This document shows positions 33,001 through 64,000 of a DNA stretch of 64,000 nucleotides, piece by piece. Location: positions 2,232,001 through 2,296,000 of the forward strand of contig NW_025767046.1 of the NCBI RefSeq assembly GCF_003918875.1. Reading direction: 5' to 3'. Each line of letters begins with the position of its first letter. Within the stretch, counting starts at the first letter, position 1. This DNA is from Haliotis rubra (lineage: Eukaryota). A program made the position numbers.

Positions 33001-36000
33001 AACTCCGCCACCAATTACCTGCTGGCAAGATGGCGATCGACATCATTAGTTTTGCTTATGCTGCGACACTTGCTGCTGGTGGAATCTTAGGATATGTTAA
33101 AGCAGGTAAATACTATAGCTTATTTTGCCATATTTGTATAAGGTCACAGACAAGTGAATTTGGTGAACTGACAACATCTGTTCTTGTACAGGCAGGTCAC
33201 AAGTTTCATTCATCAAGTGATGTGGAAGTGTTTACGAGTTCAAAATGTAGAACTTTCAAGAGATGGGGTTTCAGGTGTCGGGTCGTATATTAGGTTGCAT
33301 AGGCATACATAAACGTTCGGATACATTTAATGTGTGCATAAAGAATGAAATATGTGCATTTTAATATCCATCATTAATAAGTACAACCAGAAATTATTGA
33401 GAATTTAAAGATTGTAATTTTTTTATTTTTCACTCATTACTCACGTATTAATGTGAATATTAGCAGAACATAACTCCAGATTCAAAGAAAGGTGAACAGT
33501 TAGTATTTTGTCAAGTCACCATGGGCAGCAATGCAGGCTTCAATGCGGCGGGGCATACTACTGATAAGAGAAGTTAAAAAGTCGTGGTTCATGCTGTCCC
33601 AATATCGGACCACTTCTTCTTTCATTTAAGCAATATTTGTCAGATTTTGCTTGTTGACACTTTCCTTCATAAGTCCCCAAACATTTTCTATTGGATTTAG
33701 GTCAGGGCTATAGCTTGGCCAATCTAATAATGTCAAATTTTGGGTCCGAAACCAGGCCTGTGAATGCTTTGAACGATGTTTTGGGTCGTTGTCCAAACAT
33801 TTCCATAAAACACGTGAGCAGATGGATGTCCCTCGAGAATATCTGTGTACCGCTCACTGTTCATATTCCCTTCAAATACACAGAGGGGCGTTGTCCCTAA
33901 CACAGATATGCCACCCCACATGTTAAATTTCGGACTGTACTTTGGGCGCTGATACAAAGGTTTTTCAGTTTGTTTGGTCCAGAATTTCAGTGTATTAGGA
34001 AACAGGCACACAGAACTTTCATCTCTGAGAAAATCACATTGTCCCAGTTAAAATGTCTATGCTGTAAGCACCAGTTCAACCTTCGCTCCTTTTGTTCAGG
34101 TTTCATGAACGGTGATGGAATTCCTCGACTTTTCTGCCAACCAATTGCATGCAGCTCAGTTCTAATTGTCTCCTTACAGACAGCCACAGTTCCTCTATCA
34201 ATCATATCCAGCCTTAAGTTTTCTAAACTCCTTCATTTGTTTTTAGAAACAAGAATACCAAGCCGCCTCCTATCACCGACAGTCAATTTTCTGGGCCTCC
34301 CTGCGCCTCCCTGGTGCTCAATGCCATATCCATTTGCAATATTTTTCAAAACACGATAAACAGTGGACAAAGGGATGCCTGTTCTACTTGAAATCACTTT
34401 AGCTGATCTGATGCCCTTGTTATAATACTCTAAAATCAACTTCCTCTTCTCTAAATCATCCATACTGAGGATCACTGAAAATGTCGTCTGCTAGCAAGTT
34501 AACAAAGGGGGATAACTCTTCACAAACTAATGAAAAAGGATTAACGGAGTTGTCTCTCTTGAATGAAACCAAGCACTTGATAGCTGGTCAAGGTTGTTTA
34601 TACTAGAAATCCAATTAAACATGTTCCTAAAATTCTCAATAATTTCTGGTCATACTATAATAATAGCCATGTATAACGTTAAAAACTTCCGAGTGCAGTA
34701 TTTGAGTGATCTCACATGCAAACCCACATGGCGCACATACGATGTAGGAGAGAACAATTATTTTGCCAAACGGAATAAAAGAGAAGTGAGGGAGGCAAAT
34801 AATTATCACTGAATGAAGTCTTAAAATATCAGAGCTGGAATTTTGCTGAGTGCAAGTTTAAATAAACTTTAAAAATCAGAGTTGTCCTTTATCAGCGATG
34901 GGTCCTACAAATAAGACATGACGCTAATCCACAGCCGAGGTGTCAGCCAGATTCCGCAAACATCTCAAATTATTGAGTACCAAAACTGCAAAAAAAAGAA
35001 TGGCATAAATTGGGACCGATTGCACGAAACTCTGTAATCAATAAACTATATAGTTATGCAGAGTTAATCCAGACACCAGTTATACTGGACACCTTCAAGC
35101 TGGTGTATGCATCAATCAATAAACTATAAAGTTATGCAGAGTTAATCCAGACACCAGTTATACTGGACAACTTTCAAACTGGTGTATGCACAATACATGC
35201 TGAGCTGCTTAATTAAATAACAATACAGGTTGTGTTTACACTTAACATTTATAATCAAACACTGAATTTGTGTTTTCATTTCAACTGGGTGTAGTGAAAA
35301 ATCCATAATTGCATGTATGAGCTCAGAGTCTGAATAAAGAGGGTCTGTAATTTCTGTCAATAGGAACCAAACTGAAACAGGTCTATGCATTTGAATATTC
35401 AATGCATATGAATTGTTATTACTAAGCTGTCACATGAATTAATGAATATCAACTTTCAAGTCACTTTGACCACCTCTGATTGAAACAGCTGATTTGACAG
35501 CCACAAACACCCACTGTAGCAGCTATTGATAGAAAAGGACTTCCTTCTGAATTGTTATAAGTAGCCATTTTAAAATAAGGATCTATATCTGACAGGGTAA
35601 TCATATTATTTGCATCACAATGAGCAGGGTCTAGAACTAAAGTTTAAATCTGTTAAAGGCATCTTTCTCTTTCTTCAGGTAAATCATTGACTGTTTGCAT
35701 TTATAAGAGTGTGAGTTTAGTTCTACGCAGCTTTTAGCAATATTCTGGCAATATCACAGCGGGGGACACCACAATTGGGGCTCAGACATTGTACCCATGT
35801 GGGGAATCGAACCCGGGTGTTTGGCTTGATGAGCCAATGCTTAACCACCAGGCTACCCCACCGCCCCACATTTACAGGCTGGGGTTAACAATATGGTGAG
35901 GCTGAAATACGATATGTATCCCGATAATATGAGCGCGACACAATCCGTGTCCCAATATACTACTTTAATTTCATAAGTTAATATTGTCTGTCATTTTGTT

Positions 36001-63000: not shown

Positions 63001-64000
63001 TATTATGTTTTATTTAAACATATTTGTAATTTTAAAAAGTAGACATATCCTCAGCATTCATTGTAATGTCAAATGGGCTACAGTGTGAATTCTTTTCTGA
63101 TGTACATGCTTTTTAACTACTGGTCCAAATTCGTATTTTACTTTGGTGGCTCATGCACCATTTTAACAATTTTACATTAAAATATAATATAATATAGTAT
63201 GTCACAACACTGGTATCCATATTGTGATTTGTATTTGGATATATTTGAAGTTGAAGTGTTTGTAAATGACTGACACTGATTGTACAAGCAGATCCCAGTT
63301 TCTATGTACAAAGACTCGTAAAGATCCAGGTTAGAATTGATCTTCAGCAACCCGTGCTTGTCATACGAGGTCACTAACGGGATCGGATGGTCAGGCTCGC
63401 TGACTTGGTTGACACATGTCATCGGTTCCCAATTGCGTAGATCAATGCTTACGCTGATGATCACTGGATTGTCTGGTCCAGACTTGATTATTTACAGACC
63501 GCCACCATATAGCCGTAATATTGCTGAGTGTGGCATTGAACAACAAACCACTCACTTCGACATACAAAGGACCTAAAATATGTAGCCAGTACTTTTCTGA
63601 TAACAGCAATCTCAAATACACTTGGATAATTATGGAATTTTTCTTTTTTATATATTATAAGTTTTAGAGCGTAAAATATGCCATTTTGTCAATTAATCAT
63701 GAAGGGAAGAAACATCTATCTTGAATGAAAGTCTGTGTAGATTAATTTGAACTATAGAGATAATCACAATATTTTACTCAATATACCAGGACTGTAAAAT
63801 AATGTATTGGAGTATGAATTGTTTGAAGTGGGTATTGCCATATACCAGTATACCATACAGACCTGTAAACCTGTACTGACTTTACATTTCAGACCTGAGT
63901 TTTCCTTGTTTGTTGGTGATTTGTCAAGTGATGTTGATGACTATCAGCTGTACAACGCCTTTGCCAGGAGGTACAGATCTGTTAGAGCTGCCAAAGGTAT

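What the first reader, a model, noticed from the sequence alone, without database searches (positions are those of the whole stretch)
33030..63996. Probable ancient microsynteny TRNAU1AP-PAK1IP1-TMEM14C, suggesting human C6orf52 is a relic TRNAU1AP paralog
Seen: TRNAU1AP is head-to-head with PAK1IP1, and TMEM14C is the next gene past the PAK1IP1 3' end. Recalled: human 6p24 has C6orf52 head-to-head with PAK1IP1, followed by TMEM14C/B, and C6orf52 is annotated with a Trnau1ap C-terminal domain, while RRM-containing TRNAU1AP lies on chromosome 1. Inference: the block dates to the bilaterian ancestor and this invertebrate keeps the intact gene at the ancestral position. TMEM14C appears inverted relative to human.
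Basis: partly seen in the sequence, partly recalled or inferred. Interest (0 to 1): 0.68.

Follow-up and report, generated by a model that had tools for sequence, protein, structure and literature searches.

The report
Conserved TRNAU1AP–PAK1IP1–TMEM14 gene neighbourhood
Three ordinary housekeeping genes lie side by side here in nearly the order reported for vertebrates, which fits, but does not prove, the idea that the unexplained human gene C6orf52 is a shortened leftover copy of TRNAU1AP.

Summary
On the + strand, five coding exons (59719 to the window end) encode the first RNA-binding domain and the start of the second of a TRNAU1AP/SECp43-family protein. All 3 exons searched had TRNAU1AP as best solved-structure hit. 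On the - strand, eight in-phase exons (59391 to 44285) encode a WD40 protein. Its start codon lies 327 bp from the TRNAU1AP start, across the most CpG-rich spot of the window. A three-exon TMEM14 gene (33030-37225, +) converges on its 3' end about 7 kb away.

The name PAK1IP1 could not be confirmed: every search returned generic WD40 hits only, so it rests on recall.

PAK1IP1-TMEM14C adjacency is in print for mouse, sturgeon, shark and skate. C6orf52 homology to TRNAU1AP, its orientation in human, and intermediate lineages could not be tested. The window also stops before the C-terminal domain that matters for that comparison.

Verdict: ordinary genes in a probably ancient neighbourhood, a plausible annotation insight of modest interest.

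The parts
59719..59751 (+). TRNAU1AP-like coding exon 1 (start codon, 11 codons)
   Evidence: ATG at 59719, donor GTGTGT at 59752. At 11 codons it is below the 20-residue minimum, so it was not searched on its own.
60945..61042 (+). TRNAU1AP-like exon 2 (first half of RRM1)
   Evidence: Acceptor AG, donor GTAATT. The only solved-structure hit is 2div TRNAU1AP, E 1.8e-5, chain residues 16-49. No Pfam hit.
61483..61582 (+). TRNAU1AP-like exon 3 (second half of RRM1)
   Evidence: Acceptor AG, donor GTAAGT. Pfam RRM_1 E 6.6e-6. Best structure hit 2div, E 5.3e-7, chain residues 52-85.
62577..62629 (+). TRNAU1AP-like exon 4 (linker between the two RRMs)
   Evidence: Acceptor AG, donor GTGAGT; the phase fits exons 3 and 5. 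At 17 residues it was too short to search alone.
63893..64000 (+). TRNAU1AP-like exon 5 (start of RRM2), cut by the window end
   Evidence: Acceptor AG at 63891-63892. Best structure hit 2dhg SECP43, E 4.3e-6, chain residues 7-41. No Pfam hit.
59392..59718 (.). 327-bp spacer between the divergent start codons; candidate shared bidirectional promoter
   Evidence: CpG observed/expected is 1.17, against 0.42 for the whole window. The region 58901-59800 holds the highest value (1.28) of 629 sliding windows. It contains a palindromic TGACGTCA at 59615 and CCGGAAA on the - strand at 59678. Transcription starts are unknown.
59302..59391 (-). WD40 (PAK1IP1-like) exon 1
   Evidence: ATG at 59391 with a second in-frame ATG at 59382; donor GTATGC. 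No Pfam hit and no meaningful structure hit.
58611..58776 (-). WD40 gene exon 2
   Evidence: AG/GT junctions. Pfam WD40 E 0.0022, plus several beta-propeller families. Structure hits are generic WD40 only.
57609..57729 (-). WD40 gene exon 3
   Evidence: AG/GTGAGT junctions. Pfam WD40 E 4.9e-6, 27.3 bits, at the curated cut-off.
55667..55794 (-). WD40 gene exon 4
   Evidence: AG/GT junctions. Pfam WD40 E 6.1e-4. Structure and Atlas hits are generic WD40.
54711..54913 (-). WD40 gene exon 5, long form. An alternative consensus donor would end it at 54831.
   Evidence: Both forms keep the frame. The frame stays open for 74 codons past the first donor, chance 0.012 at this window's stop frequency. 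The long form supplies beta-strand-like segments just before exon 6 (my reading). No Pfam or structure hit.
50820..50917 (-). WD40 gene exon 6
   Evidence: AG/GT junctions. Weak Pfam hit to the WDR36/Utp21 first propeller, E 0.0013. No significant structure hit.
50055..50163 (-). WD40 gene exon 7
   Evidence: AG/GTAAAC junctions, in phase. No Pfam hit. Assigned by frame, position and recalled likeness only.
44285..44668 (-). WD40 gene last exon, with an acidic then lysine-rich tail and a TAA stop
   Evidence: Acceptor CAG at 44669-44671, stop at 44285-44287. Pfam hits are low-complexity noise only.
33030..33105 (+). TMEM14 exon A (start codon)
   Evidence: Pfam Tmemb_14 profile positions 1-27, E 9.9e-4, below the curated cut-off on its own. 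Donor GTAAAT.
36656..36757 (+). TMEM14 exon B
   Evidence: Pfam Tmemb_14 positions 19-62, E 1.9e-7. Structure hits: TMEM14C 2los E 6.4e-7, TMEM14A 2loo E 1.9e-4.
37134..37225 (+). TMEM14 exon C. It ends at the TAG at 37223-37225, or at a possible donor at 37222 if a further exon exists.
   Evidence: Pfam Tmemb_14 positions 56-84 of 92, E 1.4e-7. TMEM14C E 1.4e-6, TMEM14A E 7.7e-3. The alignment stops 18 residues before the end of the 2los chain, so a short last exon may be missing.

Best explanation
The stretch holds three ordinary, probably housekeeping genes.

A TRNAU1AP/SECp43-family gene (a factor linked to selenocysteine tRNA) and a WD40 gene that I take for PAK1IP1/MAK11 (a 60S ribosome assembly factor) are transcribed away from each other. 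They share a 327-bp, CpG-rich spacer, which most likely acts as one bidirectional promoter. A TMEM14 gene lies about 7 kb past the WD40 gene's 3' end and points towards it.

The same neighbours are reported or recalled for vertebrates: a TRNAU1AP-related gene (C6orf52), then PAK1IP1, then TMEM14C. The simplest account is descent from one block in the common ancestor of this animal and vertebrates, with TMEM14 flipped in one lineage. On this account, vertebrates duplicated the block. The copy at human 1p35 kept a full TRNAU1AP and lost its neighbours. The copy at 6p24 kept PAK1IP1 and TMEM14C, and its TRNAU1AP copy shrank to C6orf52. That gene may survive because its start is tied to the PAK1IP1 promoter.

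Shown: gene identities for TRNAU1AP and TMEM14, exon structure, orientation and the CpG peak. Inferred: the PAK1IP1 name, promoter sharing, the ancestral block and the origin of C6orf52.
For: - TRNAU1AP was the best solved-structure hit for 3 of 3 exons searched, at consecutive chain positions, with RRM_1 in Pfam.
- TMEM14 matches in 3 of 3 exons, collinear on the Pfam profile.
- WD40 signal appears in 4 of 8 exon ORFs of one in-phase - strand gene of 393 or 433 codons counting the stop. This agrees with the printed description of Pak1ip1 as about 50 kDa and almost wholly WD40 repeats (PMC3723895, passage).
- The start codons are 327 bp apart, under the window's highest CpG observed/expected value.
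- Pak1ip1-Tmem14c adjacency is in print for mouse and for sturgeon, shark and skate.
- C6ORF52, PAK1IP1 and TMEM14C are co-altered with TFAP2A in human tumours.
- SECP43 is placed at 1p35.3.
- One peptide matched both TRNAU1AP and C6orf52 at 7 of 12 residues.
- My own estimate, not a call: with about 20,000 genes in random order, roughly 2 conserved adjacent pairs between two genomes are expected by chance, but only about 1e-4 conserved triplets.
Against: - No call named PAK1IP1 or MAK11. Five structure searches with WD40-gene exons and one Atlas search gave generic WD40 or nothing.
- The homology of C6orf52 to TRNAU1AP and its orientation in human are recalled, not tested.
- The window lacks the TRNAU1AP C-terminal region, so nothing here can be compared with C6orf52.
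- The sturgeon and shark text lists tfap2a next after pak1ip1 and names no trnau1ap-like gene. The figure was not visible and may omit genes.
- Without the C6orf52 link, only one conserved pair remains, and a single pair can arise by chance.
- The taxon of the window is unknown to me, and no intermediate lineage was examined.
- The 6p24/1p34-35 duplicated-region argument (TFAP2A/E, EDN1/2, HIVEP1/3) is recalled. A search for a paper holding at least 5 of those 6 names found none.
Confidence: 0.55

Rival explanations
1. Only the PAK1IP1-TMEM14 pair is old. The TRNAU1AP gene came to lie beside PAK1IP1 in this animal's own lineage, and its likeness to the human C6orf52 position is coincidence.
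For: Only the PAK1IP1-TMEM14C adjacency is documented in print. No paper holds both TRNAU1AP and PAK1IP1. The shark and sturgeon cluster, as written, has no trnau1ap-like member.
Against: If C6orf52 really carries a TRNAU1AP-type domain (recalled; faint support), two independent arrivals next to the same gene would be very unlikely, about 1e-4 by my estimate. A 327-bp shared CpG-rich spacer is the kind of arrangement that tends to be kept.
Confidence: 0.2
2. C6orf52 is a late partial copy of TRNAU1AP (a segmental or retro-copy) that landed near PAK1IP1 in a tetrapod or amniote ancestor. It would not be a leftover of whole-genome duplication at the ancestral site.
For: C6orf52 is said to keep only the C-terminal part (recalled). 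In the searched papers it is named only for mammals and, in one paper, snakes, where an intron 3-4 marker amplified in 45 of 49 taxa (table passage).
Against: It has several exons in snakes, which argues against a retro-copy. Landing by chance beside the very gene that neighbours TRNAU1AP in this window is improbable. Fish carry a gene symbol trnau1apl, which hints at an older paralogue.
Confidence: 0.12
3. The - strand WD40 gene is not the PAK1IP1 orthologue, so the whole synteny comparison falls.
For: No tool result names PAK1IP1. All hits are generic WD40.
Against: The size and architecture fit the printed description of Pak1ip1: a short N-terminal exon, then WD40 repeats, then an acidic and lysine-rich tail. 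Exon by exon, the translation closely resembles my recollection of the human protein, which is recall and not a test.
Confidence: 0.07

Closest known systems
Vertebrate 6p24-type block TFAP2A-GCNT2-(C6orf52 / A730081D07Rik)-PAK1IP1-TMEM14C-MAK-GCM2-ELOVL2
   Same: A PAK1IP1-like gene flanked on its 3' side by a TMEM14 gene, and on its 5' side by a gene of, or recalled as related to, the TRNAU1AP family.
   Different: Here the 5' neighbour carries RNA-binding domains, which C6orf52 is recalled to lack. TMEM14 converges on PAK1IP1, whereas I recall a tandem orientation in human. No MAK-type kinase or GCM motif was found anywhere in the window, and none of the 11 long ORFs tested from the 33 kb upstream of TMEM14 matched a gene-like family (10, 1).
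TRNAU1AP / SECp43 (human 1p35.3)
   Same: The order of N-terminal exons encoding RRM1, linker and RRM2. It is the best structure hit for 3 of 3 exons.
   Different: Only the first 130 codons are in the window. The C-terminal domain and the end of RRM2 are unseen. The neighbours differ from those I recall at human 1p35.
Bidirectional (head-to-head) housekeeping gene pairs
   Same: Divergent start codons less than 1 kb apart, a local CpG peak, and CRE-type and ETS-type motifs.
   Different: No transcript data, so start sites and co-expression are unknown. A search for PAK1IP1 together with 'bidirectional promoter' found no paper.
TMEM14 family (TMEM14A, B, C)
   Same: Three exons collinear with Pfam PF03647.
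   Different: It scores nearer to TMEM14C than to TMEM14A in 2 of 2 exons. It may still stand before the vertebrate A/C split, and the last few residues are unlocated.

Membership tests
TRNAU1AP / SECp43 | First RNA recognition motif, with TRNAU1AP as closest relative | tested here: met
   Exons 2 and 3 hit 2div at chain residues 16-49 and 52-85, E 1.8e-5 and 5.3e-7. Each was the best hit or the only hit. Pfam RRM_1 E 6.6e-6.
TRNAU1AP / SECp43 | Second RNA recognition motif | tested here: inconclusive
   Only its first 35 or so residues are in the window. They hit 2dhg with E 4.3e-6 as best hit, with no Pfam hit.
TRNAU1AP / SECp43 | C-terminal Trnau1ap-type region, the part C6orf52 is recalled to share | not testable with these tools
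   It lies beyond base 64000. No extension of the contig was available.
PAK1IP1 / MAK11 | WD40 beta-propeller making up most of the protein | tested here: met
   Pfam WD40 on exons 2, 3 and 4 and a weak propeller hit on exon 6, that is 4 of 8 exon ORFs.
PAK1IP1 / MAK11 | Closer to PAK1IP1/MAK11 than to other WD40 proteins | tested here: inconclusive
   Five structure searches and one Atlas search named no PAK1IP1 or MAK11.
TMEM14 (Pfam PF03647) | Match to the Tmemb_14 profile over its length | tested here: met
   Profile positions 1-27, 19-62 and 56-84 of 92, in exon order. E 9.9e-4, 1.9e-7 and 1.4e-7.
TMEM14C orthologue specifically | Groups with TMEM14C rather than TMEM14A or a pre-duplication gene | tested here: inconclusive
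   Scores are higher to TMEM14C than to TMEM14A in 2 of 2 exons: 32.0 against 24.4 bits, and 30.7 against 19.5 bits. No tree was possible.
Bidirectional promoter pair | Divergent genes with starts less than 1 kb apart and a shared CpG-rich spacer | tested here: met
   327 bp between the ATGs. CpG observed/expected 1.17 there against 0.42 for the window, and the top value of 629 sliding windows. Transcription start sites were not testable.
Ancient microsynteny block shared with vertebrates | The same adjacency in vertebrates | tested here: met
   For PAK1IP1-TMEM14C only, from passages of PMC3723895 (mouse) and PMC11350804 (sturgeon, shark, skate).
Ancient microsynteny block shared with vertebrates | C6orf52 is a TRNAU1AP homologue lying head-to-head with PAK1IP1 | not testable with these tools
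   Recalled. Indirect support only: co-alteration with PAK1IP1 and TMEM14C, and one 12-mer matching both proteins at 7 of 12 residues.
Ancient microsynteny block shared with vertebrates | Linkage present in intermediate and other invertebrate lineages | not testable with these tools
   No animal genome collection was open. The only open genome collection holds bacteria and archaea.

The most novel reading that the evidence does not exclude
The TRNAU1AP-PAK1IP1 head-to-head pair is an old, selectively kept regulatory unit that couples a selenocysteine-tRNA factor to ribosome assembly through one promoter. After the vertebrate genome duplications, the 6p24 copy lost its RNA-binding domains but persists as C6orf52. 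It would persist because its start is locked to the PAK1IP1 promoter, and it would keep a C-terminal, protein-binding function, perhaps in oocytes, where expression is reported in PMC10775140 (passages).
Probability: 0.15. Interest if true: 0.55.

Novelty: new member of a known kind. Interest (0 to 1): 0.33.

Why it matters
If the block is ancestral, an uncharacterised human gene counted among 'missing proteins' gets an origin and a testable function: a truncated paralogue of a selenoprotein-synthesis factor, held in place by a shared promoter. It would also add one more case to the known class of deeply conserved gene neighbourhoods. The genes themselves are ordinary, and the homology is probably already recorded in domain databases (recalled). 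The gain is an annotation and evolution note, not a new mechanism.

Tried and rejected
- **Naming the WD40 gene.** Structure-sequence searches with exons 1, 2, 4, 5 and 6 and an Atlas search with exon 4 gave only generic WD40 proteins or noise.
- **A missing small exon between WD40 exons 5 and 6.** A splice-site scan gave 9 candidates, none convincing. I prefer the long form of exon 5.
- **Further vertebrate neighbours (MAK, GCM2).** No kinase or GCM motif occurs in any frame of the window. Twenty long ORFs outside the three genes gave no gene-like Pfam hit; the 3 weak hits had E 0.01-0.07.
- **RNA genes.** No Rfam family at gathering score and no tRNA.
- **Literature.** No paper holds TRNAU1AP with PAK1IP1 or PAK1IP1 with 'bidirectional promoter'. 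C6orf52 with selenocysteine gave 2 papers, of which 1 was listed and read, and it was not about evolution. The duplicated-region gene set gave 0 papers. A730081D07Rik occurs in 2 papers: one is the mouse gene-order paper read, the other was seen only in the search listing.
- **Inversion mechanism for TMEM14.** Inverted repeats occur in the gap, but they flank a separate 3-kb element, not TMEM14.
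Full report
**What is there**

The window is AT-rich (GC 0.34-0.41) and CpG-depleted overall (observed/expected 0.42). It is full of interspersed repeats. I do not take it for human. It has a TRNAU1AP-like gene beside a WD40 gene, and its exons match the human chains in the solved-structure alignments only partly. One run of 129 N at 4871-4999 was left as it is.

**TRNAU1AP-like gene (+ strand)**

Frame translations and the DNA at the junctions give five coding exons: 59719-59751, 60945-61042, 61483-61582, 62577-62629, and 63893 to the window end. 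Every internal junction is AG/GT and the phases agree.

Searched one exon at a time, exon 2 hit only the first RNA-binding domain of human TRNAU1AP (2div, E 1.8e-5). Exon 3 had the same chain as best of 51 hits (E 5.3e-7, next best 4.6e-5). Exon 5 had the second domain of SECP43 as best of 7 hits (2dhg, E 4.3e-6, next best 0.016). The hits fall at consecutive chain positions. Pfam found RRM_1 in exon 3 only, that is in 1 of 3 exon ORFs.

Only 130 codons are in the window. The rest of the second domain and the whole C-terminal region are missing.

**WD40 gene (- strand)**

Eight exons run from an ATG at 59391 to a TAA at 44285, all with AG/GT junctions and closed phases. Pfam found WD40 in exons 2, 3 and 4, and a weak propeller match in exon 6. 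Exons 1, 5, 7 and 8 gave nothing useful.

Exon 5 has two possible donors. The consensus donor would end it at 54831 and give 393 codons counting the stop. A second donor would end it at 54711 and give 433. I prefer the long form for two reasons. The frame stays open 74 codons past the first donor, with chance 0.012. The extra stretch also supplies strand-like segments just before exon 6. A scan for a separate small exon found nothing convincing.

The name PAK1IP1 did not come from any call. Five structure searches and one Atlas search gave generic WD40 proteins or noise. The name rests on my recollection of the human protein and on agreement with its printed description: about 50 kDa, almost entirely WD40 repeats, nucleolar, with a role in ribosome biogenesis (PMC3723895, passages).

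**TMEM14 gene (+ strand)**

Exons 33030-33105, 36656-36757 and 37134-37225 match the Pfam Tmemb_14 profile at positions 1-27, 19-62 and 56-84 of 92. Exons B and C score higher to human TMEM14C than to TMEM14A: 32.0 against 24.4 bits, and 30.7 against 19.5 bits. The structure alignment ends 18 residues before the end of the TMEM14C chain. A short last exon may therefore be unlocated, and a possible donor sits at 37222.

**Arrangement**

The two divergent start codons are 327 bp apart. That spacer has a CpG observed/expected of 1.17. The region 58901-59800 holds the highest value (1.28) of 629 sliding windows. It contains a palindromic TGACGTCA and a CCGGAAA motif. This is what a shared, unmethylated bidirectional promoter looks like, but the start sites are unknown.

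TMEM14 and the WD40 gene converge, with about 7 kb of repeats between them. Twenty further long ORFs were scanned, in and around that gap, within WD40-gene introns and upstream of TMEM14. None showed a gene-like family. No kinase or GCM motif was found in the window. Within those limits, TMEM14 is the next recognisable gene.

This is the main reason the PAK1IP1 name stays open.

**Comparison with vertebrates**

- Mouse gene order is printed as Tfap2a, Gcnt2, A730081D07Rik, Pak1ip1, Tmem14c, Mak, Gcm2 (PMC3723895, figure legend passage).
- The cluster elovl2-gcm2-mak-tmem14c-pak1ip1 is reported for sturgeons, great white shark and thorny skate (PMC11350804, passages).
- Human C6ORF52, PAK1IP1, TMEM14C and GCNT2 are co-altered with TFAP2A (PMC10866441, passage).
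- SECP43 is placed at HSA1p35.3 (PMC1884150, passage).
- C6orf52 is treated as a 'missing protein' with oocyte expression (PMC10775140, passages).
- It is annotated with at least four exons in snakes (PMC5723593, table passage).
- One random 12-mer matched both proteins at 7 of 12 residues (PMC9668387, table passage).
- Fish papers use the symbol trnau1apl (PMC13603655, passages).

Three points are recalled and untested: that C6orf52 carries a Trnau1ap domain, that it lies head-to-head with PAK1IP1, and that human TMEM14C is in tandem with PAK1IP1. The idea that 6p24 and 1p34-35 are duplicated regions is also recall; one search found no paper.

**Chance**

This is my estimate, not a call. With about 20,000 genes in random order, roughly two adjacent pairs would be shared by two genomes by chance. 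Only about 1e-4 consecutive triplets would be shared. The case for common descent is therefore strong if C6orf52 is a TRNAU1AP relative, and modest if it is not.

**What stayed unchecked**

The open genome collection holds only bacteria and archaea. No other animal genome was examined.
Published microsynteny surveys (recalled) may list these pairs there.
- The taxon of the window is unknown to me. 'Bilaterian ancestor' should therefore read 'common ancestor of this animal and vertebrates'.

**Verdict**

The genes are ordinary and the interest is modest.

Noticed in passing
window 33629-34490, - strand (TMEM14 intron 1): Remnant of a Tc1/mariner-type DNA transposon. Pfam DDE_3 E 2.8e-14 and 0.0053 on two ORFs, and helix-turn-helix hits on a third. 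It is split over several frames, so it is probably dead.
   Followed up: partly
window 14354-14806, 20301-20843 and 11461-11736, - strand: Fragments of non-LTR retrotransposons. RVT_1 E 2.6e-13 and 0.024, and a weak zf-RVT hit, E 0.057. Local CpG observed/expected is raised at several of them.
   Followed up: partly
window 40050-40399 and 42734-43090: An inverted repeat pair in the TMEM14-PAK1IP1 gap. Arms of 192 and 95 nt are 96% and 89% complementary and lie about 2.3-2.9 kb apart. It looks like a foldback or terminal-inverted-repeat element of about 3 kb.
   Followed up: no
window 1-899 and 17196-18582: Two long tandem arrays: period 58 (16 copies, 93% matches), and period 57 (arrays of 8 and 12 copies, 98-99% matches, with a higher order of 171). 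Both give long open frames on both strands, which are not genes.
   Followed up: no
16 places, for example 4133-4308, 25320-25537, 56608-56795, 61600-61775, 63300-63600: A SINE-like interspersed repeat of about 200-250 nt at 76-90% identity. It gave 16 BLAST hits including the query itself. Several copies lie in introns of the WD40 gene and two in TRNAU1AP-like introns. A second repeat forms a 4-copy tandem of period 128 at 57068-57584, in WD40-gene intron 3. No Rfam or tRNA match.
   Followed up: partly
window 32201-33000: CpG observed/expected rises to 0.85-0.96 just upstream of the TMEM14 start codon, which fits its promoter. The whole window is otherwise CpG-poor (0.42), as in a methylated genome.
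   Followed up: no
window 4871-4999: A run of 129 N. Left untouched.
   Followed up: no
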